A DNA stretch of 64,000 nt from sequence record NC_014662.1; one strand, 5' to 3'. The notes below the pieces were generated by a model that searched no databases, was not told the DNA's origin, and was given only the letters and a program-made list of their open reading frames with translations. The DNA is from Enterobacter phage CC31. Shown in pieces: positions 393-64,000 of this stretch; positions within the stretch are counted from its first letter, which is position 1, and every line of letters begins with the position of its first letter. A program made the translations under genes and the position numbers.

Positions 393-451
393 TTTTAATC
401 TCCGTTTGTTTGGTATGAGAGTATCATAACATGGACAAACGGAGATGTAAA

Positions 452-742
452 CTACTTTCTAGTCAAAGATTTGATTTTTCCTACAAGTTTATCTTTCTTA
501 ATGCCTTTATGATAGTCTTTACCTACCATCATGAAATAAGTTCCAGTAGTAGGGTCAAAGTTAACAGACACACGAGTACCATTAACATCGATATCACGTT
601 GATTTATAACACGACTTACTTTACCGAATTCAGCGGCTAGAATAGTTTCAATTTCTTCTGCGCCTTTAGTAGCGGCCGCATAAAGTTCTTTGCCAGACAT
701 TTCACGTTTAGCTTCAAACATAAATTCATTATAGGTTTTCAT
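452..742 (-). CDS. Internal protein (IPII/IPIII-like) with capsid-targeting N-terminus
   Basis: In-frame start [11 protein letters not shown] matches T4 internal-protein capsid targeting sequence; lies between denV and e as in T4. Confidence 0.65.
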
Positions 743-4630: not shown

Positions 4631-4659
4631 AATATTTTCCTCTTTAGAATGTAGAACTA

Positions 4660-5001
4660 CTATAACACACTTGACTGATGTTGTAAACGGTTCTTTCTAC
4701 ACATTCTGATGAAGTTTTCAATAGGCTCTTCTGGTCTATTGGCTGGATAGCATTTCTTCCAGTTCCACCCTCCCAGCAAGTCAAAGATTTGGTCAGGAAG
4801 AGAATCCCATGGATGTTCTCTTTCGCGGAGTTGAAGCACAATATCACCGGCTGCTTCTCTAATTCCAGTATCAAGTTTTCCATTACAAATCACGACATCC
4901 ATGAGTACTGCAAGACAACAACTATCATGGCTTCCGTATTTGTTCGGATAGTAGAAATAATGGTCAATAATGTAGCAGCAATTACGGTCTAAACCTTTCA
5001 T
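4660..5001 (-). CDS. Hypothetical Cys-rich protein
   Basis: Start chosen at MKGLDRN (ATG 5001..4999 after AGGA); C-terminal ENFIRMCRKNR tail shared with downstream genes. Confidence 0.45.
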   Translation of the reverse strand: MKGLDRNCCYIIDHYFYYPNKYGSHDSCCLAVLMDVVICNGKLDTGIREAAGDIVLQLREREHPWDSLPDQIFDLLGGWNWKKCYPANRPEEPIENFIRMCRKNRLQHQSSVL

Positions 5002-55114: not shown

Positions 55115-55173
55115 GATGTTCTCCTCAGTTAGTGTAAGTCTATAGTAACACACTTCCATGTGCGTGTAAACGG

Positions 55174-57309
55174 TTAAAGAACGAACTTCTCTGGAGTGTC
55201 TTCAACATCAATCATTGAAGCCAACAGAGCAAGAATCTTGTTGCTTTCTGATGCCTTTGTGGACTTAACAAATCCTTCAAAATCATATGGACTTGGTTCA
55301 GGCTGAGGCTCGTCACTGTATTCTACTACTTCACCGGTTTCCATAAGAACGTCACCATCATAAACAACAGCTTCGTCTAACTGGTCAGCTGTCATTACTT
55401 CGCCTTGGATGAATTTCTGATTGTCATACACTAGACCATCACTATAAGAAGCATCTACAATGCTGTTGACTTTCAGCATAGTACCGCGAGGCAGAATAAC
55501 TTCCATTTCACCAGACATGTTGCTCAGGTCACCAGGATAAACAACGTTAACTTTCTCACCACCAGTAATAGCCCAACCAATCATGACTCTCGTGCTTTCC
55601 GCCTGCTGAACGTCTTTAGCTGCATGAACCTCATCAGTAAGACCTAATTCAGCATAAGTCATAGAAGCTAACTTGACAGTTTCTGCACTGTTATCTGGCT
55701 GATTCAATACTGCACGAGTATTATCAGAAGCCATTGCAACCGCTTGGTTACCTTTCCAACCACCAAAAATAATTGGAGACAGAGAAGTTGAAACATAGTT
55801 TCTGAAATAGAATACTCTGTTCTTAACCATTGCTTCAAAAATTGGTTTACGGACTGACTGCGAACGCCATAAGGTAAGTCCTTCTGGAATTCTGTCACCG
55901 CGTTTAAAAGCATCATCCAGATTTTTGATAGCAGTAGTAACTTCTTTATAAGACAGCGTATCGTAATTGTCAGCTCTATAACGGCCTAAAAGCATATTGT
56001 TGATGTCTGAATAGCCGGAACCAACATACTCTTTGATGCCGCGTTTTTCTGCATTTGTATATTGAAGAGGTGTACGAGTACGAGTAATATCTTCGATAGT
56101 AGCAGAAACGTTTTTAGCATAACCTTGAAGAGCAGCTTTAATCATTTTGGTACGTTCAATGTTCCAAAGATTGTTAGCCATTTGCTCTTTATCTTTTGGT
56201 TCAAGGTATTGTGGAACTTTAGTCATGATATGTTCCATTGCTTCATATTTACGCTCTTCTAATGTGTCTAAAAGAGTTTGAGTATATGCTTGCATACTCT
56301 GAACTGAAGTTAATGGAGCATTACCAATTCTTGATTCAAGTTCTTTTACGAATCTCTGCTCAAATTTTTCTGACTGACTTAATTTAATTGTAGTCAGTGA
56401 TTTCAAATGGAATATAGCTCCAGTGGCTGCCAATTGAGCAGAACGAGCTTTAGCCGCTTTAGATTCTACCGCGTCCTTTAACTGCTGAGCTTCCGGAATA
56501 GGATTTGCTGTAGCTGGTTTACTGAATTCAGCAGCAGTGGCTTCATACTTTTCAAATTCTTCCGGGTCATGAATGATATCAGAAGTTAATGATTGACTTG
56601 CCGCAACTTGACGACGAGATACCTTAGCACGAGCAATAACAGATTGGTCAGTACGTTTGTCATTCTCTTGAGCAATAGTAGCTGCTAACGCTTCCGATTT
56701 AGAAACTTGCTTACCTGACTTATTGTTGATGTAAACATCACCGACCGCAGTGTCAACCTTAGTGAACTCTTCTGTTGATATCTCTGGGATGCCAGGGATG
56801 GTCGAGAGGTCAACATTCTTACGATGAATAAGAACATATACGTACTTCTTATCGTAATCATAGAGTTCTTTCAGGATAACAAAACGACCACCCAGACGAC
56901 TCATCACCAAACGGTTGATAATCATCTGCACTGCTCGAGCTTGTCCACCCATCTTAGACTTATTGATGCGGAACATTACAGCATCCATTTTGTATTTCTT
57001 CACAGTTTGAGATACTAAGTCAAACATGGTAGAAATAACACCCAATGGATTGCCACCAAGATTTTTCAGCTTAACCAAAGTACCTTTTTCAGATACACCG
57101 AGCACAATAGCATGCATCATTTTATCACCAGGCTTAACGTTCTTGTTAACGTCTCCGCCGCCAGTGTAAGAACACATACGAAGAGCTACTGAACCTTCTG
57201 GAGCAGCAATAGCAAAAATCTGTGGAATTTTAGTTTTCGGATAAAGATTAGTGACCGGAAGCATTTCTGAATCCGCGTCAAAAATCTCATTTAATTGAAA
57301 TTCGGTCAT
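55174..57309 (-). CDS. alt: Alt ADP-ribosyltransferase
   Basis: Start at MTEFQLNEIF; LPVTNLYPKTKIPQIF, RIPEGLTLWRSQSVRKPI, EVILPRGT.LKVN match T4 Alt. Confidence 0.9.
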   Translation of the reverse strand: MTEFQLNEIFDADSEMLPVTNLYPKTKIPQIFAIAAPEGSVALRMCSYTGGGDVNKNVKPGDKMMHAIVLGVSEKGTLVKLKNLGGNPLGVISTMFDLVSQTVKKYKMDAVMFRINKSKMGGQARAVQMIINRLVMSRLGGRFVILKELYDYDKKYVYVLIHRKNVDLSTIPGIPEISTEEFTKVDTAVGDVYINNKSGKQVSKSEALAATIAQENDKRTDQSVIARAKVSRRQVAASQSLTSDIIHDPEEFEKYEATAAEFSKPATANPIPEAQQLKDAVESKAAKARSAQLAATGAIFHLKSLTTIKLSQSEKFEQRFVKELESRIGNAPLTSVQSMQAYTQTLLDTLEERKYEAMEHIMTKVPQYLEPKDKEQMANNLWNIERTKMIKAALQGYAKNVSATIEDITRTRTPLQYTNAEKRGIKEYVGSGYSDINNMLLGRYRADNYDTLSYKEVTTAIKNLDDAFKRGDRIPEGLTLWRSQSVRKPIFEAMVKNRVFYFRNYVSTSLSPIIFGGWKGNQAVAMASDNTRAVLNQPDNSAETVKLASMTYAELGLTDEVHAAKDVQQAESTRVMIGWAITGGEKVNVVYPGDLSNMSGEMEVILPRGTMLKVNSIVDASYSDGLVYDNQKFIQGEVMTADQLDEAVVYDGDVLMETGEVVEYSDEPQPEPSPYDFEGFVKSTKASESNKILALLASMIDVEDTPEKFVL

Positions 57310-57332
57310 GACAAGTCCTCTATTGTTTCTTA

Positions 57333-57340
57333 TATTTATA
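57333..57340 (-). promoter_or_regulatory. Late promoter box TATAAATA for alt
   Basis: Exact TATAAATA on minus about 24 nt upstream of alt ATG. Confidence 0.6.
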
Positions 57341-57363
57341 GACAACAAAAGCCCCGAAGGGCT

Positions 57364-57582
57364 TTAGACTGCAATAATATTCCTGAAGATTTCAACCTTT
57401 CCACCGCCACGGGTAGCAATGACCTCATGCTTGTTAATTCCGGAAACTCGACCATCTGTAAATGATTCCACTTCACCCTGTGGACGGAATGGTAATTCGA
57501 CCAAACTCTGTGTTACATTAGCGGCTCGTCCTGAGCCTTCACCTGGATGAGCAATTGTGATAATTTCTAAATAGAATTTCAT
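57364..57582 (-). CDS. Hypothetical protein
   Basis: 72 aa ORF overlapping stop of ligase gene. Confidence 0.45.
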   Translation of the reverse strand: MKFYLEIITIAHPGEGSGRAANVTQSLVELPFRPQGEVESFTDGRVSGINKHEVIATRGGGKVEIFRNIIAV

Positions 57583-59063
57583 AGACCAGTTACCTCATGG
57601 AAATCACCCCAGATATCAGCAAACGTATTTGCTACATCTTTATCACGACGCATTTTAATCGCAATAGGCAAGAACAGCTTGACATAATCAGTTCGCCCTT
57701 CAGCAGCTAACCAACCATTACATTCGGATTCAAGAACACCACCGATGTAGTCATTCTTGTTTTCCCAAATTCGAGTTCGGTCTAACTCATGAGCATCTTT
57801 ACCTGGTTTGTCTTTAAGACCTGAACCAGCTTTAACTTTAATCAGACCACATTCGGATTCAAGATAAAAACCACCGGCTTTACCTGGCTGCTTGCTATGC
57901 TCATAGATATCAACAATACGAAGGTCAATCGTAATAACTTCTTTGAACTTATAAAGGTTTTTAGAACGGGTGTTTTCCCAGAAAGCCCCAATGTTCTTCA
58001 GGATAATACCTTCAAGACCTTCATCAACGTATTTGCGATAAATGACCTTAGCTTCATCAAGATTATGAACGATGTGGTTCTCAATCAGAATCATCTGAGA
58101 GTAACCTTGAACCATCAGTTCTAATGCACGGAAGCGAACATCATAAGCAAATCCAGATTGCTTACCTTCGGAATAAACAACATCCAACGGAACGTAATCC
58201 CATACTTGGAATTTCATACCAGCAGCTTCTTTAGCTGAGATAGTTCCTTTCAGAGATTTGTTAGCCAACCCGTTTGACATTGTACGGGATTCTTCTTTGA
58301 ATTCCTTAGCTTTACTCAGCTCGGGTAAATCACCGAAGATATCGTCCAATGGACCAGCTGGGAGAGTGCTTGCATGATAGACGAGTTCACCATCAATCAT
58401 TACACCGCCAGGATGACGTTCACGAGCTTCTTTGGTCATTTCAATGAGTTGTTGTTTTAACAAATCAAGACCAAGATACTCGTTACCCGCTCGGGACAGA
58501 ATTTTTACATCATCTAATTCATCACCACGAACTTCAGCAAATGCTCTGGCACCATCGGCTTTAAGCTGTGCAAATGCAGGGAACTTGATGTTCTTTTCAA
58601 TACCTTTTTCATCATAAGATGAAGCAAGCATCTGTGGCTGTTCGGGAATTAGATTTTTCCATACTTTATTCGCAATACTACGGGATGCGCCACAGCGCAA
58701 ATCACGAAGCAGAACTTTCTTAACAACTTCTGCATCTGCATCAGATGTTTGAGATAAAGCAATTTCAAGTTTTTCCTTTGCGGCATTACCGGTCACAACT
58801 CGCTTAGCTAATTTTTCTTCTAACAAATAAAGCATGTCTTCAAGAGTAAGATGAATATCACCTTTAGGTCTCGTATCCCACTTCTTGATGTAATACTGGA
58901 GCTTGCCATCATAAGTCATTCTGAATACTCGCTTCAGAAGCTCATTATCTTTATGACGACGGATGATAGCTTCTTTTTCTTTGGTAGAGCCAATTGAAGC
59001 AATTTCATTGATAATATCTAAAATCATATTCACCTCGTTTATTGTCCCGAGCGGGTATGACAA
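57579..59063 (-). CDS. 30: ATP-dependent DNA ligase gp30
   Basis: 494 aa (T4 487); adenylylation motif LKADGAR. Confidence 0.95.
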   Translation of the reverse strand: MSYPLGTINEVNMILDIINEIASIGSTKEKEAIIRRHKDNELLKRVFRMTYDGKLQYYIKKWDTRPKGDIHLTLEDMLYLLEEKLAKRVVTGNAAKEKLEIALSQTSDADAEVVKKVLLRDLRCGASRSIANKVWKNLIPEQPQMLASSYDEKGIEKNIKFPAFAQLKADGARAFAEVRGDELDDVKILSRAGNEYLGLDLLKQQLIEMTKEARERHPGGVMIDGELVYHASTLPAGPLDDIFGDLPELSKAKEFKEESRTMSNGLANKSLKGTISAKEAAGMKFQVWDYVPLDVVYSEGKQSGFAYDVRFRALELMVQGYSQMILIENHIVHNLDEAKVIYRKYVDEGLEGIILKNIGAFWENTRSKNLYKFKEVITIDLRIVDIYEHSKQPGKAGGFYLESECGLIKVKAGSGLKDKPGKDAHELDRTRIWENKNDYIGGVLESECNGWLAAEGRTDYVKLFLPIAIKMRRDKDVANTFADIWGDFHEVTGL

Positions 59064-59085
59064 TTATATCATACCCTTTATAAAG

Positions 59086-59316
59086 CTATTGCCCGCGATA
59101 CTCACGAATGAGTTCAGCCAGAGTTCGGTGGTAAAGTACTCCACCATTTTTACGAGTAATGTAGATTGCGCCATTGAACATCGCATCAATCATTTCACGT
59201 TGTTTTTGATTATCAGCATGAATGTTACGCGCCTTGAAGAACTCTTCTTTGTTTGCGAAACTTTCTAAACGCTTAGTTTTGTCAGTTTGCGGGAACCATT
59301 CAATTACGTTAATCAT
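59086..59316 (-). CDS. Hypothetical protein (30.1 position)
   Basis: 76 aa ORF. Confidence 0.5.
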   Translation of the reverse strand: MINVIEWFPQTDKTKRLESFANKEEFFKARNIHADNQKQREMIDAMFNGAIYITRKNGGVLYHRTLAELIREYRGQ

Positions 59317-60182
59317 GCTTTACCTATAGTAGTTTTAGCTGTAGGCTGACGATTCAGATATTCGATACCTGTCCCAATTCCGTATCCTACACCTGGATTG
59401 TAAACAGGAAGATTACCTGGATGCTCATACCACGGCTTATAATCAGAAGGACCTGGATTTACCCATTTCTTTGGAAATTCTGGAAACTTATCAAATGGCC
59501 AATTCGGAGTAGTCTTTTCAACCTTTTTGAATAAGTCGCTCAGCTTATCACCGAGGCTTTCCTGGAATTCGCGCTGATTCATCAGACGCTGAACATGTTC
59601 CCAGTTATGCACCTTTTCTCCATATTTAGAGGAGGTGTCTCGCTGACCACGAGGCATAAACATGCAATTGACTTCACCGCCAAAGACTTCATAAGCTGAA
59701 TCTACATGATGAGGAAGGTCATCAATATAAGCAACAACTCTGTCGCCATATTTTTCTTTGATTTTCTCAAAGAGTTTAGTCTTTGGCTCAGCATGGTCAC
59801 AGATGAAAGTTTCAAGGAAAGCACCTGGGAACAAAGCATTCAAGTTGAATTGACGATTCAGTTTAGCATCTACAGAAGTACCAAGTGCCGTTACTGCAAC
59901 GAAGTCATACTTATCTTTCAGAGCATTGACAACCTTCAAAGCATCGTCATACGCAGCCAGATAGCGAATGAAATCTGAGCAATTATATTTGACCATCAGT
60001 TGTTGAGCAAATTCTTCGTCTACACCAAACAAATCTTTTGGAGCAACGAATTGGTCGTCAATAATCATTTCAAGAATGTGATGAACAGGCAGATTGTACT
60101 TCTGAGCGAAGTAAGGCAAGCCTGATTGCCACTTTACTAATACACCGTCTACATCAGTAGAGATAATTGGTTTATTTGACAT
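59313..60182 (-). CDS. HAD-superfamily hydrolase-like protein (30.2 position)
   Basis: 289 aa; N-terminal DVDGVL resembles HAD motif I. Confidence 0.55.
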   Translation of the reverse strand: MSNKPIISTDVDGVLVKWQSGLPYFAQKYNLPVHHILEMIIDDQFVAPKDLFGVDEEFAQQLMVKYNCSDFIRYLAAYDDALKVVNALKDKYDFVAVTALGTSVDAKLNRQFNLNALFPGAFLETFICDHAEPKTKLFEKIKEKYGDRVVAYIDDLPHHVDSAYEVFGGEVNCMFMPRGQRDTSSKYGEKVHNWEHVQRLMNQREFQESLGDKLSDLFKKVEKTTPNWPFDKFPEFPKKWVNPGPSDYKPWYEHPGNLPVYNPGVGYGIGTGIEYLNRQPTAKTTIGKA

Positions 60183-60326
60183 TTTTAGCCTTCATTTTAG
60201 CAATCATGTAAGCCGCGATACAAGATTTACCCGGCAGCGATGGTTGTCCAACTCCACTTAATAGAGTAGTTAACTCTCCTACTTTAATACCGCCTTGATT
60301 TAAGCGTTTTAAAACATCAAGACCTT

Positions 60327-60509
60327 TCATATCATATTTGACTTGCATAACATTTTCTCAAAGGTTGCGATACTGTTAGCTGGGCCACTTAGAGTTATCT
60401 CTATGAACCCAGGCTGACTTGAAGGACCAATTCTGTATATACATATGGCTAATGTTCTTGCGTATTCCAGAAGGTCCTTCGTTAACCCTCTTACATTAAA
60501 CTGTTTCAT
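60327..60509 (-). CDS. Hypothetical small protein
   Basis: Start chosen at in-frame ATG 60509. Confidence 0.35.
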   Translation of the reverse strand: MKQFNVRGLTKDLLEYARTLAICIYRIGPSSQPGFIEITLSGPANSIATFEKMLCKSNMI

Positions 60510-60699
60510 AAATTTCGTCATTAGCAGCTTTAAGAGGTTCGATTTCACATTCTAAACGAATATCAGTATTCCCATCAACCCATTGTACTTCATAAGCAGG
60601 TTGAACACCATATTCTGGGATTGCTTCAGCAGTATCACAGATGACTCCCGGAATACCGCCTTTTCGCAGCTGTACGGCTTGTAAAATGTGGTATTTCAT
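60496..60699 (-). CDS. Hypothetical small protein
   Basis: 67 aa ORF. Confidence 0.45.
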   Translation of the reverse strand: MKYHILQAVQLRKGGIPGVICDTAEAIPEYGVQPAYEVQWVDGNTDIRLECEIEPLKAANDEIYETV

Positions 60700-60862
60700 T
60701 CTGCCACCGCATAAGTTGGAATTTGACGAAAGAAATCAGGGCATTCAAGCTGATACTTAACTTCTGTATCAGAGACAGTTACACCCAGCACTTCAATCAT
60801 TGGATTGCTCAACATGCCGCGTTCAAATTCAGGTGCTTTATTACGAGGAATAGTGATAATCA

Positions 60863-61330
60863 TTACAGAGTCTCCAATACAGTTTTTACTTTAGCTTCAG
60901 CAACTTGTTTAACAATCAGAACACGAACACCTTCAATCGCGTTGCGAATTTGCTTTTGAGCTTTTTCTGTAGCTTCATCTTCAGTGTAAGGACCAACACA
61001 GAAGGGCGATTGAGAACGACTGGCCGGGATGGTCATCATCCAGAAATCTTTATCTACAGAAGCTTGCTTAACTTCTTCAAGATACTTATGAATATCAGTA
61101 GCCAAGAAGAAGCACCATACTACATTGAATACACCAACATTAGCATGATGAAGTTTACCATCAACATCAATTGCAATAATGTTTCCACCGCCGTCTATCT
61201 TTTTGACTGTAAATGAAGTTAGTCCGTTATTCAACAGCTTAAGAAGTTCATCAGAATAAGAACTTCCACGATTCTTAAGACAAGTAACACCGGATTCAGT
61301 CAGTTTAAACTCTTTATCAATAATGCTCAT
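60863..61330 (-). CDS. Hypothetical protein
   Basis: 155 aa ORF. Confidence 0.5.
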   Translation of the reverse strand: MSIIDKEFKLTESGVTCLKNRGSSYSDELLKLLNNGLTSFTVKKIDGGGNIIAIDVDGKLHHANVGVFNVVWCFFLATDIHKYLEEVKQASVDKDFWMMTIPASRSQSPFCVGPYTEDEATEKAQKQIRNAIEGVRVLIVKQVAEAKVKTVLETL

Positions 61331-61369
61331 AACTATTTCCTCAAGTAGAGGGGCCGAAGCCCCTAATTT

Positions 61370-61732
61370 TTAGATTACGAATTCGTTTGAAACGATATCC
61401 CAAATTGCTTCACGTTGTTCTTCAGTAGTTTTGAGGCTGAGAACATGACGCAGATAAAGTTTAACCAGAATTTTACGATTATCACCGTTCCAAGAAGGAT
61501 GAGTTCCTAAATCGCGAGTACGATGATCATCGTGGAAACCAATTGAAATGACTGAACCTTTGAGTTTGACGTCTAAGGTTGGGCCATTTTCAAAACTGAT
61601 GAAGACGTAGTTATCTTCCCAGTACATATCGATTTGAGCAACTGTGCCATTTTTATGTTCCCAGAGTAAAGTTGTTGAAACGTCCCATGCATTATCTTGA
61701 ACGTATTTTCTGTTAAAGTTTGTGAAGTTCAT
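61370..61732 (-). CDS. Hypothetical protein
   Basis: 120 aa ORF. Confidence 0.5.
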   Translation of the reverse strand: MNFTNFNRKYVQDNAWDVSTTLLWEHKNGTVAQIDMYWEDNYVFISFENGPTLDVKLKGSVISIGFHDDHRTRDLGTHPSWNGDNRKILVKLYLRHVLSLKTTEEQREAIWDIVSNEFVI

Positions 61733-61802
61733 TTTGTTCTCCGTTGTATCTGTTTGTTTTTGAGTTTATATACTAACACATACAACGGAGGATGTAAACG
61801 GT

Positions 61803-62324
61803 TTAGTTCACTTCTGTGAAAATTGTTTGAGGAACTTGCTCGGTTTTGGCAGTTGCAATCATCTTCATAATGGCAGCTTTTCCTTCAATGTTTTTACGCA
61901 AGAACGACTTGCATGCATCATGAGCTTCTTCGGACGTCATAAGCGTAGCTATTGAACGCGCTTCCCCTACTTGGTCCAGATTCAACCAAACGTTTTCTTT
62001 CTTAGTCTGGCCAAAAGCCGCATACATCACTTCAACGGTCTTTTCTTCAGTTTCAATCAGAAAATTTTTAATTTCATTTGAAGTAAACCAAGGACACGAA
62101 TCGCCATTCATACCATCAATATCAGCACCCTTTGGACTTATCCAGCCTTCATTTTCAAATCGGATAAGACCAATAGAACCTGAAGCAATTGCTTCACCCT
62201 TTGCAATGTAAAAAGGTCTGTCACCGATATAATCGGCAATCAATTGATTTACTCGCTGATTGCATCCTTCAGCGAACTTTAAAAAACCTTCTTTGTCTAA
62301 GCGGTACAGAACATCACTTTTCAT
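61803..62324 (-). CDS. Hypothetical protein
   Basis: 173 aa ORF. Confidence 0.5.
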   Translation of the reverse strand: MKSDVLYRLDKEGFLKFAEGCNQRVNQLIADYIGDRPFYIAKGEAIASGSIGLIRFENEGWISPKGADIDGMNGDSCPWFTSNEIKNFLIETEEKTVEVMYAAFGQTKKENVWLNLDQVGEARSIATLMTSEEAHDACKSFLRKNIEGKAAIMKMIATAKTEQVPQTIFTEVN

Positions 62325-62348
62325 AGTTTCCTCATAAGGCCCGAAGGC

Positions 62349-62771
62349 CTAGAACATTTTACGTTCGGTCCAGTTATCAAGATTAACTGTGCCAGTTTTC
62401 TTCATTTTCTCAATCAAGTTATCTGCGCGAGTGCGTCCATTTTCATACCACACTACATCTTCAGAATAACCATCTTCGTCTTCATAAGTTTCTGAACGAA
62501 TGTGACCGTGAATGCTTGTTTTCAAAACGTATTCAGAGCCAGTGAACCAGTTAGTCAAAACGATGTACCAGCAGAAATCAGTAGATGGACCATCAGGAGT
62601 CATACAGTGAACTACATCTCCTTGCCATGAAGACAGATGCCACATTGGCTCTTCTACTTCAATTGCTTTATATCCGTCATGGTCTTTCGTTTTGATTTTA
62701 GCGTTCAGATTAATTGTGTTCATTTTATTCTCCGTTACCATATTGGTTATTGAGATTCTATCATAACACAA
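62349..62771 (-). CDS. Hypothetical protein
   Basis: 140 aa ORF. Confidence 0.5.
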   Translation of the reverse strand: MCYDRISITNMVTENKMNTINLNAKIKTKDHDGYKAIEVEEPMWHLSSWQGDVVHCMTPDGPSTDFCWYIVLTNWFTGSEYVLKTSIHGHIRSETYEDEDGYSEDVVWYENGRTRADNLIEKMKKTGTVNLDNWTERKMF

Positions 62772-62791
62772 CTTTCAACAGATGTAAACGG

Positions 62792-62995
62792 TTAGAGTTT
62801 TTCGCAACTATGATATTCAGTATCTGTCCAAATACCAAATGACGGCAATGATTCTAGCATTGAGTTTCCGACTTTAACTGCGTCTTCCCATGGCCAAAGC
62901 GTAGCAACCTTTTCATAGAAAAAGATTGAATCCATGTGTGAATATTCTGCTGGGTATTCTGATGTAACTTTGAAAATAAATTTACGCTTAAACAT
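62792..62995 (-). CDS. Hypothetical small protein
   Basis: 67 aa ORF. Confidence 0.4.
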   Translation of the reverse strand: MFKRKFIFKVTSEYPAEYSHMDSIFFYEKVATLWPWEDAVKVGNSMLESLPSFGIWTDTEYHSCEKL

Positions 62996-63050
62996 ATGAA
63001 CCTCTTAAACAAAAAAGGGACTCCCGAAGGAGTCCCGAACTTATGCTTTA

Positions 63051-63230
63051 TGCTTTCTTACGTGGATTACCAAAAGCCGTGTCGTGAGCAATAACTTTAC
63101 GAGCACGAGATGCTAACTTATCTGTTAGCTGATTGATACGCTTGTTCGAACCACGCTTGTAGCCAGCGCGTTTAGAGGTACCAACAACTTCTTTTACTGC
63201 AGTTTTTGCTTTAGCTTGTTTAGCCATTTT
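63051..63230 (-). CDS. Hypothetical small basic protein (not in ORF track)
   Basis: Manual translation MAKQAKAKTAVKEVVGTSKRAGYKRGSNKRINQLTDKLASRARKVIAHDTAFGNPRKKA, 59 aa. Confidence 0.4.
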
Positions 63231-63375
63231 TAGTCTTCCATATAAGGAGGTAATAAAAGAGCTCTAAGTCTTAGACAGCTAACCTTTTGCTGACGCATAG
63301 AGCCGTTGTTAATGGAAGTTTTGGATATTTAACGTCTGGATAACTACCAACCACGACCAAGTCCTCGAAGGGTAC

Positions 63376-63624
63376 TTATTTCAAAGTCACTACGAAGTGA
63401 CGAACCGCTTTACGAGCTGCTGAACACAGAGGTTTAGCAAACTTCAACTCATCTTTCAGAGCAAGTGCATCGCGGAGGTCTGCCTGAACAGGATTCAGAT
63501 GTTTGAAACCTTTCAGAACTTCCAGTGCTTCGGCGTAAACGTCGATAGATGCACCGTAGTTTTCGTGACCTGCGTTCCAGGAGTTGCGCTGCAGATGCAG
63601 AGCGTGTTCAAGTTGTTTGTTCAT
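63376..63624 (-). CDS. rIII: rIII-like lysis-inhibition accessory protein
   Basis: About 82 aa from MNKQLEHALHL; sits just before gene 31 as T4 rIII; recalled from memory. Confidence 0.55.
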   Translation of the reverse strand: MNKQLEHALHLQRNSWNAGHENYGASIDVYAEALEVLKGFKHLNPVQADLRDALALKDELKFAKPLCSAARKAVRHFVVTLK

Positions 63625-63755
63625 TGACATTATGTCATTCCTCAATACGAGGTTAATAAAAGGTAGACGGTATCAGAGTTTAATCTATGCGTCTACCACC
63701 TTGTAATTTCTCCGGGTAACTTTTGTCCGGCAGCCAAATTACAATAATATTTATA

Positions 63756-64000
63756 TCACCCGTAGATACACGGAATTGATTTCCAATGACAAGTCACAAA
63801 TTTTTGTGCAATTTCTTTTGGTTTTTTCATACCAGCAGCGACAAGCGGATGAGGTACATTACGAATCTGACCAGTTGGCAGCGGCACTAACATACCGACT
63901 TCGAAAATACCTTCAGGAACATCCGCGCCGATTGAATATATTTCACACATATCGGGGATTTGTCCGGTTTCTTGTTTGCCGATAACAATACCGCCAGAAG
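63756..64000 (-). CDS. 31: gp31 co-chaperonin (GroES-like), N-terminus off-window
   Basis: C-terminus [33 protein letters not shown] matches T4 gp31; frame stays open to window edge. Confidence 0.85.

What the first reader, a model, noticed from the sequence alone, without database searches (positions are those of the whole stretch)
59086..63230. Run of small minus-strand ORFs between DNA ligase and rIII, including a HAD-like hydrolase
About ten short ORFs of unknown function lie here, most separated by UUCG hairpins. ORF 59313..60182 begins with a DVDGVL motif resembling HAD motif I. This matches the variable 30.x region of T4-like phages, a typical site for host-range or takeover genes.
Basis: partly seen in the sequence, partly recalled or inferred. 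Interest (0 to 1): 0.3.

Follow-up and report, generated by a model that had tools for sequence, protein, structure and literature searches.

The report
Variable 30.x gene block, T4-like phage
This is the familiar variable "30.x" cluster of small early genes that T4-like phages carry between their DNA ligase and rIII genes, here in a CC31/PG7-type Enterobacter phage; it holds one real HAD-family phosphatase (gp30.2) and several lineage-specific genes inserted at conserved hairpin and promoter sites, which is ordinary for this phage group.

Summary
The minus-strand ORF run is real: 12 ORFs lie between DNA ligase (57579..59027) and rIII (63376..63630) in a Karamvirus-type T4-like phage. One product is 100% identical to a CC31 protein.

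- **Orthology:** It is the T4 30.x block. Clear T4 orthologues exist for 30.2, 30.5, 30.7, 30.8 and 30.9, and weak ones for 30.1 and 30.4. Five ORFs have no T4 counterpart. T4 30.3 (AdfN, anti-DarTG1), 30.4 proper and 30.6 are absent.
- **HAD call:** ORF 59313..60182 (gp30.2) has all four HAD motifs, with D10, D12, K134 and D155 invariant in 104 relatives. Its confident model matches only capped HAD enzymes. Profile links point to NT5C-type 5'(3')-deoxyribonucleotidases. The substrate is unknown.
- **Hairpins:** "Mostly separated by UUCG hairpins" is overstated. Only 3 of 11 internal junctions have one, and 6 are gene overlaps. Those three hairpins and two T4-type early promoters do mark where lineage-specific ORFs (67, 173, 155 aa) are inserted. 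This fits the published PeSL modular-shuffling model.
- **Function:** Nothing here establishes a new function.

Verdict: an ordinary, already-described kind of region, of low to moderate interest.

The parts
57579..59027 (-). DNA ligase (gp30), the downstream flank of the block
   Evidence: 69% identical to T4 gp30 over 487 aa. The alignment starts at ATG 59027. PG7 annotates it as ligase.
59053..59076 (-). Strong non-UUCG hairpin (10-bp stem, UAAU loop) in the 58-nt gap before the ligase start; it embeds a TGATATAAT sequence resembling an extended -10
   Evidence: RNA fold -19.4 kcal/mol, z = -4.8, 0 of 200 shuffles as stable.
59086..59316 (-). 76-aa ORF, probably a diverged 30.1 (DUF3045-like) positional orthologue
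   Evidence: phrog_13133, E = 2e-44. T4 30.1 hits the same PHROG at E = 0.0065. BLASTP to T4 30.1 gives E = 0.065 with a shared YHR[ST]LxEL motif. It occupies the same slot between 30.2 and ligase. Changes against relatives are 15 synonymous and 3 non-synonymous.
59313..60182 (-). gp30.2: HAD-superfamily phosphatase core (aa 1-~193), a long helix (194-224) and a disordered Pro/Trp/Gly-rich tail ending in the motif GTGIEYLNRQPT
   Evidence: 49% identical to T4 30.2. D10, D12, R110, K134 and D155 are invariant in 104 relatives. The family profile hits PDB 3bwv, a putative 5'(3')-deoxyribonucleotidase, at E = 5e-6. Of 104 relatives, 26 hit Pfam NT5C, 19 HAD_2 and 16 Hydrolase. AF2 pLDDT is 87.9, and 96-98 over residues 1-225. 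Foldseek gives 106 PDB hits; the 50 listed are all HAD-fold proteins. Tail motif.
60138..60155 (-). Codons for HAD motif I (D10-V-D12-G-V-L15)
   Evidence: Read directly from the sequence. D10 and D12 are invariant, G13 and V14 at least 90% conserved.
60172..60348 (-). 58-aa ORF, Karamvirus-specific, function unknown
   Evidence: phrog_23929. Annotated in PG7, VPA32 and RZH. No match in T4 or the other sampled genera. Too invariant to test for coding constraint.
60327..60509 (-). 60-aa ORF, function unknown (ORF listing reports it as 73 aa from a GTG start)
   Evidence: Annotated in VPA32 and RZH but not in PG7. A 37%-identical homologue lies immediately upstream of 30.2 in Klebsiella phage Hyena. 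phrog_27351, E = 1e-5.
60496..60699 (-). gp30.5 orthologue (67 aa)
   Evidence: 41% identical to T4 30.5, E = 3e-13. phrog_1690. T4 30.5 is reported to bind host Ppk and trigger bNACHT11.
60696..60863 (-). 55-aa ORF, DUF7428
   Evidence: Pfam PF24204, E = 3e-17. Also present in Hyena at 34% identity; absent from T4.
60863..61330 (-). 155-aa ORF in the slot T4 uses for 30.6: a two-domain member of a multi-copy family of large-myovirus proteins
   Evidence: 100% identical to CC31p207. Present in 69 phage records as alleles of 86, 62, 40 and 30% identity. AF2 pLDDT 91. No PDB analogue; the best hit is a FeoA SH3-like barrel at E = 0.63. 42 BFVD hits, all uncharacterised.
61349..61364 (-). UUCG hairpin after 30.7; its position is conserved across genera
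   Evidence: AGGGGCUUCGGCCCCU, -11.7 kcal/mol, z = -2.3. T4 has GGGGCUUCAGCCCC and SP18 has GGGGCGAAAGCCCC at the same junction.
61370..61732 (-). gp30.7 orthologue (120 aa)
   Evidence: Pfam PF06919, E = 8e-59. 52% identical to T4 30.7.
61770..61799 (-). T4-type early-promoter-like site upstream of 30.7
   Evidence: GTTTACA...TGTGTTAGTAT. The pattern occurs 10 times in the window against 2.6 expected. Equivalent promoters lie upstream of 30.7 in T4, SP18 and Hyena.
61803..62324 (-). 173-aa ORF inserted between 30.8 and the 30.7 promoter; probably a distant paralogue of the 155-aa ORF
   Evidence: Found in only 32 phage records. Its C-terminal 40 aa are 35% identical to the 155-aa ORF, E = 4e-4. 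hhalign aligns the two families end to end over 147 columns at E = 0.002 but only 13% probability. Both ORFs hit phrog_3710.
62337..62350 (-). UUCG hairpin after 30.8, overlapping its stop codon
   Evidence: AGGCCUUCGGGCCU. The hairpin alone folds at -8.4 kcal/mol. With z = -1.3, it is not distinguishable from shuffled sequence on its own. Hyena has a UUCG hairpin at the same junction.
62349..62723 (-). gp30.8 orthologue (124 aa from ATG 62723)
   Evidence: Pfam PF06019, E = 2e-47. 41% identical to T4 30.8. A GGAG ribosome-binding site lies 8 nt upstream.
62760..62789 (-). T4-type early-promoter-like site upstream of 30.8
   Evidence: GTTTACA...TGTGTTATGAT. It corresponds to the promoter half of the hairpin-plus-promoter cassette at the T4 30.9|30.8 junction.
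62792..62995 (-). 67-aa ORF inserted between the hairpin and the promoter of the 30.9|30.8 cassette; a distant 30.4-like protein
   Evidence: phrog_22802, plus phrog_2042 at E = 2e-4. phrog_2042 is the T4 30.4 family. BLASTP against the T4 30.4 C-terminus gives E = 0.011. An AAGAGG ribosome-binding site lies before ATG 62995.
63010..63036 (-). UUCG hairpin plus U-run (terminator-like) after 30.9
   Evidence: GGGACUCCUUCGGGAGUCCC followed by UUUUUUG; -16.7 kcal/mol, z = -4.6. Nearly the same hairpin follows 30.9 in T4, SP18 and Hyena.
63048..63227 (-). gp30.9 orthologue (59 aa, very basic)
   Evidence: 62% identical to T4 30.9 by BLASTP, E = 1e-13, and 65% by tblastn. phrog_1427.
63376..63630 (-). 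rIII, the upstream flank of the block
   Evidence: 77% identical to T4 rIII. phrog_1457, lysis inhibition accessory protein.

Best explanation
The region is the early-transcribed, non-essential 30.x 'hyperplastic' block of a Karamvirus (CC31/PG7-type) T4-like phage.

**Backbone and cassettes.** It has a conserved backbone of a 30.1-like ORF, 30.2, 30.5, 30.7, 30.8 and 30.9. Lineage-specific ORFs are slotted into this backbone. The inserted ORFs of 67, 173 and 155 aa each begin directly after a conserved UUCG stem-loop. Two of them end at a T4-type early promoter. Hairpins and promoters therefore act as the punctuation at which cassettes are exchanged by recombination, which is the published PeSL modular-shuffling mechanism. 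The same elements would insulate and drive early transcription.

**gp30.2.** The one recognisable enzyme is gp30.2 (59313..60182). It is a Mg2+-dependent phosphomonoesterase of the HAD superfamily with a helical C1 cap, closest to the NT5C 5'(3')-deoxyribonucleotidase branch. Asp10 would be the nucleophile and Asp12 the acid/base. Thr98 and Lys134 would hold the phosphate, and Asp154/Asp155 the metal. It most likely dephosphorylates a nucleoside monophosphate or a similar small phosphoester in phage DNA or nucleotide metabolism. Its disordered tail, ending in GTGIEYLxxQPT, probably docks it to a partner.

**What is shown and what is inferred.**
- Shown: gene order and orthology, the HAD fold and motifs, the hairpins and their positions, and the insertion sites.
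- Inferred: promoter and terminator activity, the recombination mechanism, enzyme activity and substrate, and the role of the tail.
For: **Identity of the block.**
- DNA is 92-94% identical to Karamvirus genomes. The PG7 annotation lists 30.2, 30.5, 30.7, 30.8 and 30.9.
- BLASTP to T4 gives 49, 41, 52, 41 and 62% identity for 30.2, 30.5, 30.7, 30.8 and 30.9.

**Variability.**
- In eight genomes, 30.2 plus ligase are universal and 30.5/30.7/30.8/30.9 are present in all six genomes sampled from Karamvirus, T4, SP18 and Hyena but in neither Slopekvirus nor Pseudotevenvirus.
- The 76-, 58-, 155-, 173- and 67-aa ORFs are Karamvirus-only.
- The 173-aa ORF occurs in 32 records. The 155-aa ORF occurs in 69 records with 30-86% identity.

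**Cassette architecture.**
- The T4 and Hyena 30.9|30.8 junctions are a single cassette of UUCG hairpin, T-run and early promoter.
- In the window the 67-aa ORF lies between that hairpin and that promoter.
- SP18 has an unrelated ORF (30.6A) at the same site, flanked by two hairpin copies.
- 30.8|30.7 is promoter-only in T4. Here it is hairpin, 173-aa ORF, promoter. In Hyena it is hairpin, two ORFs, promoter.
- The hairpin after 30.7 is conserved with different loops (UUCG, UUCA, GAAA), but the gene that follows differs: 155 aa here, 30.6 in T4, 163 aa in Hyena.
- UUCG hairpins number 13 against 0.58 expected. The promoter motif occurs 10 times against 2.6 expected.
- The PeSL model and its experimental support are in PMC2839356 and PMC4122927.

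**gp30.2.**
- D10, D12, K134 and D155 are invariant, and T98 and D154 are invariant within Tevenvirinae.
- The motifs fall at the ends of predicted strands 6-10, 93-98 and 149-154, with a five-helix insert at residues 18-88.
- The listed Foldseek hits are all capped HAD-fold proteins. 3bwv has the best target-normalised TM-score, 0.69.
- The family profile hits 3bwv at E = 5e-6. 26 of 104 relatives hit Pfam NT5C.
- gp30.2 abuts or overlaps the ligase gene, or is separated from it only by 30.1, in all five further genera sampled and in a 34%-identical metagenomic relative.
- Other distant relatives lie next to RecA, dNK/Tmk, UDG, dCMP deaminase, RNase H or PhoH.

**Accessory status.** CRISPRi-ART scores knock-down of T4 30.2, 30.3, 30.4, 30.5, 30.7, 30.8 and 30.9 as 'Not Fit', meaning no fitness contribution in the laboratory (PMC11879866 supplement).
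Against: - No transcript, promoter or terminator data exist for this phage. The promoters and hairpins are consensus or thermodynamic calls, and the 62350..62337 hairpin is not distinguishable from shuffled sequence (z = -1.3).
- Two of the three inserted ORFs lack a complete hairpin-plus-promoter unit on both sides, so strict PeSL-to-PeSL recombination is not demonstrated.
- The gp30.2 protein itself matches no Pfam, NCBIfam or PDB entry by single-sequence search. The NT5C link is only at profile and family level. The listed fold hits span many HAD specificities (dehalogenase, epoxide hydrolase, sugar phosphatase), so the substrate is open.
- The same CRISPRi-ART screen also scored ligase as 'Not Fit', so it is not a sensitive test.
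- Paralogy of the 155- and 173-aa ORFs rests on E = 4e-4 and E = 0.002 with hhalign probability of only 13%.
Confidence: 0.85

Rival explanations
1. gp30.2 is a polynucleotide 3'-phosphatase, an end-healing enzyme that prepares nicks for the adjacent DNA ligase. It would work like the HAD phosphatase domain of T4 Pnk or eukaryotic PNKP.
For: - The 30.2-ligase adjacency is conserved, sometimes with overlapping coding regions. It holds in T4, Gaprivervirus, the Hyena phage, Slopekvirus and Pseudotevenvirus, and in a 34%-identical metagenomic relative.
- One of 104 relatives weakly hits Pfam HAD_PNKP at E = 0.003.
- The DxDG[TV] form of motif I is shared with PNKP-type phosphatases. This last point is from memory.
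Against: - The model has a roughly 70-residue helical C1 cap between motifs I and II. From established knowledge of the superfamily (Burroughs et al. 2006, recalled from memory), that cap type goes with small-molecule substrates. Polynucleotide phosphatases are capless.
- The best profile and fold links are to capped subfamily IA and NT5C enzymes.
- T4-like phages already encode PseT for this job. This is also from memory.
Confidence: 0.12
2. gp30.2 is a HAD phosphatase acting on a non-nucleotide metabolite, such as a sugar phosphate, phosphoglycolate or FMN. Its place next to ligase would be only inherited gene order.
For: - Fold hits include sugar phosphatases, beta-phosphoglucomutase, YfnB and HDHD4 with scores similar to the nucleotidases.
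- One JGI record names a 91%-identical homologue 'FMN phosphatase YigB'.
- The window protein itself does not reach Pfam NT5C.
Against: - Among relatives, NT5C is the most frequent Pfam hit, at 26 of 104.
- The best profile hit in the PDB is a deoxyribonucleotidase-like protein.
- Neighbourhoods of distant relatives are DNA or nucleotide metabolism genes rather than sugar metabolism.
Confidence: 0.2
3. The hairpins and promoters are ordinary transcription and RNA-stability signals, and the ORF differences arose by illegitimate recombination or deletion unrelated to them. There would be no PeSL-type targeting.
For: - UUCG hairpins occur throughout the window, including between conserved genes.
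- Only five punctuated junctions exist in the block, so the coincidence is small-sample.
- The other lineage-specific ORFs (58, 60, 55 aa) sit in an overlapping gene string with no hairpin or promoter.
Against: - All three ORFs inserted between backbone genes start immediately after a hairpin that is conserved in position across genera.
- Two unrelated insertions (67 aa here, 30.6A in SP18) use the same cassette, and SP18 carries a duplicated hairpin on both sides.
- PeSL-mediated excision has been shown experimentally in RB49 and phi1 (PMC2839356).
Confidence: 0.2
4. gp30.2 is a catalytically inactive HAD-fold scaffold whose real function lies in the conserved cap surface and tail motif, that is, in protein binding.
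For: - The cap is unusually conserved. WQSGLPYFAQKYNLP and KYNxSDFIRYL are invariant or nearly so across Tevenvirinae.
- The tail ends in a recurrent linear motif.
- T4 knock-down shows no phenotype.
Against: Every catalytic position (D10, D12, K134, D155) is invariant across 104 relatives down to about 22% identity. That is the pattern of an active enzyme.
Confidence: 0.08

Closest known systems
T4 gene 30 - rIII interval (genes 30.1-30.9), a 'hyperplastic region' of T4-like genomes
   Same: - Same flanks (ligase, rIII), same strand and same order of 30.2, 30.5, 30.7, 30.8 and 30.9.
- The same hairpins follow 30.9 and 30.7, and the same early promoters precede 30.8 and 30.7.
   Different: - This window lacks 30.3 (AdfN), 30.3', 30.4 proper and 30.6.
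- It carries ORFs of 58, 60, 55 (DUF7428), 155 and 173 aa that T4 lacks.
- A 30.4-like ORF sits in a different slot, and 30.1 is highly diverged.
PeSL (promoter-early stem-loop) cassettes of RB49/phi1 and other T4-like phages (Arbiol et al. 2010, PMC2839356; Comeau et al. 2014, PMC4122927)
   Same: - Intergenic stem-loops and sigma70-like early promoters flank lineage-specific ORFs in a variable region.
- The T4 and Hyena 30.9|30.8 junctions hold both elements in one intergenic unit.
   Different: - Here the stem-loop (a UUCG tetraloop terminator type) and the promoter are split by the inserted ORF instead of forming one unit on each side.
- The published PeSL stems are mostly G-tract/C-tract and often sit within the promoter.
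- No mini-circle or recombination evidence exists for this phage.
NT5C family 5'(3')-deoxyribonucleotidases (human cdN/mdN; PDB 3bwv from Staphylococcus epidermidis)
   Same: - HAD core with a C1 helical cap, DxDGVL motif I and an hhhDD motif IV.
- The family profile hits 3bwv at E = 5e-6. 26 of 104 relatives hit PF06941. Foldseek TMt is 0.69.
- W18 is nearly invariant, eight residues after the nucleophile. NT5C enzymes have a base-stacking Phe at that position (recalled from memory, not tested here).
   Different: - The window protein itself does not match PF06941 even at E <= 0.1, and identity to 3bwv is 18%.
- It has an extra long helix (194-224) and a 65-residue disordered Pro/Trp/Gly-rich tail that NT5C enzymes lack.
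- No activity data exist.
T4 30.3 = AdfN (NADAR DNA ADP-ribosylglycohydrolase, anti-DarTG1) and T4 30.5 (Ppk binder, bNACHT11 trigger)
   Same: They show that genes of this block act at the phage-host interface. The window has a 30.5 orthologue at 41% identity.
   Different: - AdfN is absent from the whole 64-kb window. Its slot is occupied by the 58- and 60-aa ORFs.
- Ppk binding by this 30.5 orthologue is untested.

Membership tests
HAD (haloacid dehalogenase-like) superfamily, phosphatase type | Motif I, hhhDxDx[TV], at the end of strand 1 (nucleophile Asp and Asp+2 acid/base) | tested here: met
   I-I-S-T-D10-V-D12-G-V14. D10 and D12 are invariant in 104 relatives. Strand E6-10 ends at D10. 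The presence of the second Asp argues for a phosphatase or mutase and against a dehalogenase (established knowledge).
HAD (haloacid dehalogenase-like) superfamily, phosphatase type | Motif II, Ser/Thr at the end of strand 2 | tested here: met
   F-V-A-V-T98. T98 is invariant in 25 Tevenvirinae-type sequences and is the majority residue in the wider set. Strand E93-98 ends at T98.
HAD (haloacid dehalogenase-like) superfamily, phosphatase type | Motif III, a conserved Lys/Arg before the helix that leads into strand 4 | tested here: met
   K134 is invariant in 104 relatives and sits immediately before helix 135-148.
HAD (haloacid dehalogenase-like) superfamily, phosphatase type | Motif IV, acidic residues (DD or DxxxD) at the end of strand 4 that bind Mg2+ | tested here: met
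   Y-I-D154-D155. D155 is invariant in 104 relatives and D154 is invariant in Tevenvirinae. Strand E149-154.
HAD (haloacid dehalogenase-like) superfamily, phosphatase type | Rossmann-like alpha/beta core fold | tested here: met
   AF2 pLDDT is 96-98 over the core. Foldseek gives 106 PDB hits at E <= 1e-3, and the 50 listed are all HAD-fold proteins.
HAD (haloacid dehalogenase-like) superfamily, phosphatase type | Mg2+-dependent phosphoryl transfer through an aspartyl-phosphate intermediate | not testable with these tools
   Needs an enzyme assay of the purified protein and a D10N control.
NT5C (PF06941) 5'(3')-deoxyribonucleotidase family | Match to the Pfam NT5C model above its gathering score | tested here: not met
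   The window protein has no NT5C hit even at E <= 0.1. 26 of 104 relatives match NT5C, with a best E-value of 4e-10. I therefore file it as NT5C-like, not as a member.
NT5C (PF06941) 5'(3')-deoxyribonucleotidase family | C1-type helical cap inserted just after motif I | tested here: met
   Five helices span residues 18-88, between motifs I and II. The best TMt, 0.69, is to the deoxyribonucleotidase-like 3bwv.
NT5C (PF06941) 5'(3')-deoxyribonucleotidase family | Hydrolysis of dNMPs with deoxyribose preference | not testable with these tools
   Needs a substrate panel. Only context supports it.
T4-type 30.x block | Location between DNA ligase (gene 30) and rIII on the same strand | tested here: met
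   Ligase is 69% and rIII 77% identical to T4. The PG7 annotation agrees.
T4-type 30.x block | Orthologues of the T4 30.x genes in conserved order | tested here: met
   30.2, 30.5, 30.7, 30.8 and 30.9 are present and collinear. 30.3, 30.4 proper and 30.6 are absent.
PeSL regulatory/recombination cassettes | [quoted passage not shown] | tested here: inconclusive
   Both elements are present in the block and form a single unit at the T4 and Hyena 30.9|30.8 junction. In the window they lie on opposite sides of the inserted ORFs.
PeSL regulatory/recombination cassettes | Association with lineage-specific ORFs (insertion, deletion or replacement at the cassette) | tested here: met
   The 67-, 173- and 155-aa ORFs each start right after a conserved hairpin. 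SP18 30.6A is flanked by two hairpin copies.
PeSL regulatory/recombination cassettes | Demonstrated promoter and terminator activity, and recombination or mini-circle formation | not testable with these tools
   Needs reporter fusions and inverse PCR on infected cells, as in PMC2839356.

The most novel reading that the evidence does not exclude
gp30.2 could be a ligase-linked nucleotide phosphatase conserved across Straboviridae that protects infection by destroying particular (modified or damaged) deoxynucleoside monophosphates released when the phage degrades host DNA. These are the kind of molecules now known to trigger nucleotide-sensing defences, for example m6-dAMP sensed by PUA-Cal-HAD (bioRxiv 10.64898/2026.01.15.699771). 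Its conserved GTGIEYLxxQPT tail would tether it to the replication or nucleotide-synthesis machinery. Alongside it, the multi-copy 155/173-aa family in hairpin-delimited slots would be a fast-evolving set of host-interaction or counter-defence proteins. None of this is excluded by the evidence, and none of it is supported beyond the family assignment, the gene neighbourhoods and the allelic diversity.
Probability: 0.1. Interest if true: 0.6.

Novelty: new member of a known kind. Interest (0 to 1): 0.25.

Why it matters
Mostly it does not change anything. The block is a known variable region of T4-like phages, and its HAD-like gene has already been labelled as such in a few database records.

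Three modest points are useful:
- gp30.2 is one of the few genes of this block conserved in every T4-like genus sampled, always next to ligase, with intact catalytic residues and no assigned activity. That makes it a cheap and well-defined target for a substrate screen.
[quoted passage not shown] This supports the PeSL shuffling model in Tevenvirinae.
- This phage lacks AdfN (30.3) within the 64 kb examined. If the rest of the genome also lacks it, that predicts sensitivity to DarTG1-type defence unless another gene compensates.

Tried and rejected
- **Single-sequence searches of gp30.2.** Pfam, NCBIfam and PDB gave only noise (ADH_Fe_C at E = 0.03, an ArsA ATPase at E = 0.4, a lipase at E = 0.14). 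I discarded these in favour of profile and structure evidence.
- **A dehalogenase or epoxide-hydrolase reading of the top fold hits.** Rejected because the Asp+2 residue is invariant.
- **Rfam scan of 57000..64000 at E <= 1.** Nothing found.
- **PADLOC scan of ten block ORFs (30.9 and the 67-aa ORF not included).** Nothing found.
- **Fetching CC31 itself.** The exact-protein contig look-up and accession NC_014662 both failed. The link to CC31 therefore rests on one protein that is 100% identical.
- **Paper searches.** Searches by T4 protein accession and by gene numbers gave noise. Two genome-wide T4 fitness papers do not mention 30.x in the main text. Only a supplement gave scores.
- **The 155-aa model against the PDB.** No significant match. 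The afdb50 library was unavailable.
- **Pfam scan of longer gp30.2-like proteins for informative fusions.** Nothing beyond HAD itself.
- **The VPA32 record's labels.** 'Putative peptidase inhibitor' for the 155-aa homologue and 'YorP' for 30.5 found no support in my searches. I did not adopt them.
- **Plus-strand ORFs in the block.** They are at most 103 aa, overlap the minus-strand genes and have no family hits, so I treat them as non-genes.
- **The 5-bp UUCG-loop hairpin at 59113..59100.** It lies inside the 76-aa coding sequence and I treat it as chance.

Full report
**What is there**

The interval 59086..63227 is filled by a single run of minus-strand ORFs. After correcting starts I count twelve:

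| ORF (minus strand) | Size | Assignment |
|---|---|---|
| 59086..59316 | 76 aa | 30.1-like (weak) |
| 59313..60182 | 289 aa | gp30.2 |
| 60172..60348 | 58 aa | Karamvirus-specific |
| 60327..60509 | 60 aa | also in phage Hyena |
| 60496..60699 | 67 aa | gp30.5 |
| 60696..60863 | 55 aa | DUF7428 |
| 60863..61330 | 155 aa | multi-copy phage family |
| 61370..61732 | 120 aa | gp30.7 |
| 61803..62324 | 173 aa | probable paralogue of the 155-aa ORF |
| 62349..62723 | 124 aa | gp30.8 |
| 62792..62995 | 67 aa | 30.4-like (weak) |
| 63048..63227 | 59 aa | gp30.9 |

The flanks are DNA ligase and rIII. Ligase is 69% identical to T4 gp30, and its true start is ATG 59027. rIII is 77% identical to T4 rIII.

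Comparison with three relatives shows the third-position and synonymous excess expected of real genes for most ORFs. The 58- and 60-aa ORFs are nearly invariant, so they cannot be judged this way. The 60-aa ORF has a 37%-identical homologue in the same position in another genus.

**Source**

The DNA is 92-94% identical to Karamvirus genomes such as PG7, RZH and VPA32. The 155-aa product is 100% identical to CC31p207 of Enterobacter phage CC31. CC31 itself could not be fetched.

**Relation to T4**

- BLASTP against the T4 30-rIII interval gives clear orthologues for 30.2 (49%), 30.5 (41%), 30.7 (52%), 30.8 (41%) and 30.9 (62%). Pfam confirms 30.7 as PF06919 and 30.8 as PF06019.
- The 76-aa ORF is probably a diverged 30.1. 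It occupies the same slot, T4 30.1 hits its PHROG at E = 0.0065, and the two share a YHR[ST]LxEL motif.
- The 67-aa ORF is a distant 30.4-like protein sitting in a different slot (phrog_2042).
- The 58-, 60-, 55- (DUF7428), 155- and 173-aa ORFs have no T4 counterpart.
- T4 30.3, 30.4 proper and 30.6 have no match anywhere in the 64-kb window.
- All PHROG families hit in the block are 'unknown function'.

**What the literature adds**

- T4 30.3 is AdfN, a NADAR enzyme that reverses DarT1 ADP-ribosylation (bioRxiv 10.1101/2024.07.11.602962). It is absent here.
- T4 30.5 binds host polyphosphate kinase and is one of the triggers of bNACHT11 (bioRxiv 10.1101/2024.12.17.629029). Its orthologue is present here.
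- In the CRISPRi-ART screen, knock-down of T4 30.2, 30.3, 30.4, 30.5, 30.7, 30.8 and 30.9 had no fitness effect (PMC11879866 supplement). The same screen also scored ligase as unimportant, so it is not a sensitive test.

**The HAD claim**

Single-sequence searches of the 289-aa protein found nothing. A full-library search gave 256 relatives, mostly about 200 aa and matching residues 3-205.

- In an alignment of 104 relatives, D10, D12, R110, K134 and D155 are invariant, and G13, V14, W18, S69 and N113 are nearly so.
- The family profile hits PDB 3bwv (putative 5'(3')-deoxyribonucleotidase) at E = 5e-6, followed by many other HAD enzymes.
- Of the 104 members, 26 match Pfam NT5C, 19 match HAD_2 and 16 match Hydrolase.
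- AlphaFold2 gives pLDDT 96-98 for residues 1-225. Strands end exactly at D10, T98 and D154, K134 precedes a helix, and five helices (18-88) form a C1-type cap.
- Foldseek returns 106 PDB hits at E <= 1e-3. The 50 listed are all capped HAD-fold proteins, and 3bwv has the best target-normalised TM-score, 0.69.

All four motifs and the fold are therefore met. The invariant second Asp points to a phosphatase and not a dehalogenase. The window protein itself does not reach the Pfam NT5C model, so I call it NT5C-like and not a member. Two JGI records and one GenBank record already carry HAD or nucleotidase labels for homologues, so the assignment is not new.

**Further features of gp30.2**

- It occurs in 1,436 phage records.
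- In every genus sampled (T4, Gaprivervirus, the Hyena phage, Slopekvirus, Pseudotevenvirus) it lies directly upstream of ligase. It is separated from ligase at most by 30.1 and sometimes overlaps it.
- A 34%-identical metagenomic relative is again next to a ligase.
- Other distant relatives lie beside RecA, dNK/thymidylate kinase, UDG and an HD nucleotidase, near a dCMP deaminase, or near RNase H, PhoH and PDDEXK genes.
- Homologues come as about 200-aa cores or 270-330-aa forms with a variable Pro/Trp-rich tail. The tail is predicted disordered.
- In 15 of 55 long homologues the tail ends in GTGIEYLxxQPT, and T4 carries a variant of this ending (GGIEYLYNRPT). This suggests a docking motif.
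- One metagenomic protein is a 30.2::30.1 fusion.

The substrate cannot be determined with these tools. I rate a (d)NMP-type substrate at about 0.4.

**Hairpins and promoters**

C(UUCG)G hairpins are strongly enriched in the window: 13 against 0.58 expected. Within the block only three internal junctions have one: after 30.9 (63036..63017, with a U-run, -16.7 kcal/mol, z = -4.6), after 30.8 (62350..62337, weak, z = -1.3) and after 30.7 (61364..61349, z = -2.3). Six junctions are gene overlaps. A strong non-UUCG hairpin precedes ligase.

Two junctions carry T4-type early-promoter matches, GTTTACA...TGTGTTAnnAT, at 62789..62760 and 61799..61770. This motif occurs 10 times in the window against 2.6 expected.

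**Cassette architecture**

The junction comparison explains the layout.

- In T4 and in Klebsiella phage Hyena, the 30.9|30.8 junction is one unit of UUCG hairpin, T-run, early promoter and ribosome-binding site.
- In the window the 67-aa ORF sits between that hairpin and that promoter.
- In SP18 an unrelated ORF (30.6A) sits at the same place, flanked by two copies of the hairpin.
- The 30.8|30.7 junction is promoter-only in T4. Here it reads hairpin, 173-aa ORF, promoter. In Hyena it reads hairpin, two ORFs, promoter.
- The hairpin after 30.7 is conserved with loops UUCG, UUCA or GAAA. The following gene is 155 aa here, 30.6 in T4 and 163 aa in Hyena.

This is what the PeSL model of Arbiol et al. 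2010 and Comeau et al. 2014 describes for hyperplastic regions of T4-like genomes. Here the two halves of the cassette are split by the insert, and no recombination data exist for this phage.

Sequence identity to relatives is also mosaic. It is 96-100% across 60172..60863 but 62-88% for the 155- and 173-aa ORFs.

**The lineage-specific 155- and 173-aa ORFs**

- They share a C-terminal 40-residue stretch (35% identity, E = 4e-4).
- They align end to end by profile-profile comparison at E = 0.002, but with only 13% probability.
- Both touch phrog_3710.
- The 173-aa ORF is in 32 phage records. The 155-aa ORF is in 69 records as sharply different alleles.
- The 155-aa model is confident (pLDDT 91) and has two domains.
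- It has no significant PDB match.
- It matches 42 uncharacterised 145-180-aa proteins of T4-like and other large myoviruses, several per genome.

It is therefore a member of a widespread, multi-copy, fast-evolving phage family of unknown function.

**Verdict**

The interpretation (30.x variable region, HAD-like gene) is correct. The region is ordinary and already described in kind. The useful residue is a well-defined uncharacterised enzyme, gp30.2, and a neat example of cassette insertion at regulatory punctuation.

Noticed in passing
window 63228-63375 (rIII|30.9 intergenic): This 148-nt non-coding gap is 244 nt in T4 and 397 nt in SP18. It contains a block, GGTTATCC..CGTTAAATATCCAAAA, conserved in all three phages. 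There is no Rfam hit and no stable fold (z = +0.8). Its function is unknown; it may be a promoter.
   Followed up: partly
window 59053-59076: A strong 10-bp hairpin (UAAU loop, -19.4 kcal/mol, z = -4.8) lies in the 58-nt gap before the ligase start. It embeds TGATATAAT, which resembles an extended -10. The layout recalls the stem-loop around the -10 at the T4 30.8|30.7 promoter.
   Followed up: partly
protein P0058 (metagenomic, 302 aa): This is a natural fusion of a gp30.2 HAD core with a 30.1 (DUF3045) domain in place of the Pro/Trp tail. It hints at a functional link between 30.2 and 30.1, unless it is an assembly frameshift.
   Followed up: no
window 60172-60863 versus 60863-62324: Identity to relatives is mosaic. 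The segment holding the 58-aa, 60-aa, 30.5 and 55-aa ORFs is 96-100% identical to PG7, VPA32 and RZH, while the neighbouring 155- and 173-aa ORFs are only 62-88% identical. The 30.9 and rIII genes are 100% identical to RZH, while 30.9 is 87-88% and rIII about 97% identical to PG7 and VPA32. This points to recent recombination between Karamviruses.
   Followed up: partly
protein P0261 (Enterobacter phage vB_VIPECLOM01, 153 aa): This protein carries the 30.8 Pfam domain and also matches the C-terminal 55% of the 173-aa ORF at 86% identity. It looks like a deletion that fused 30.8 to the 173-aa ORF across the intervening hairpin.
   Followed up: no
whole window (64 kb): No homologue of T4 30.3/AdfN (NADAR, anti-DarTG1) is detectable by tblastn. 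The rest of the roughly 165-kb genome was not available to check.
   Followed up: partly
window 55174-57348 (alt) and 57348-57365: The N-terminal part of the Alt ADP-ribosyltransferase ORF matches T4 alt.-1 and alt.-2, which T4's own annotation calls an old duplication of the start of alt. Another UUCG hairpin (57365..57348, z = -2.8) lies between the alt.1-like 72-aa ORF and alt.
   Followed up: no
window 423-452, 4659-4688, 55142-55171 (minus strand): Three further copies of the same early-promoter class, GTTTACA...TGTGTTAnnAT, occur elsewhere in the window. This suggests a shared promoter family that could provide homology for cassette exchange.
   Followed up: no
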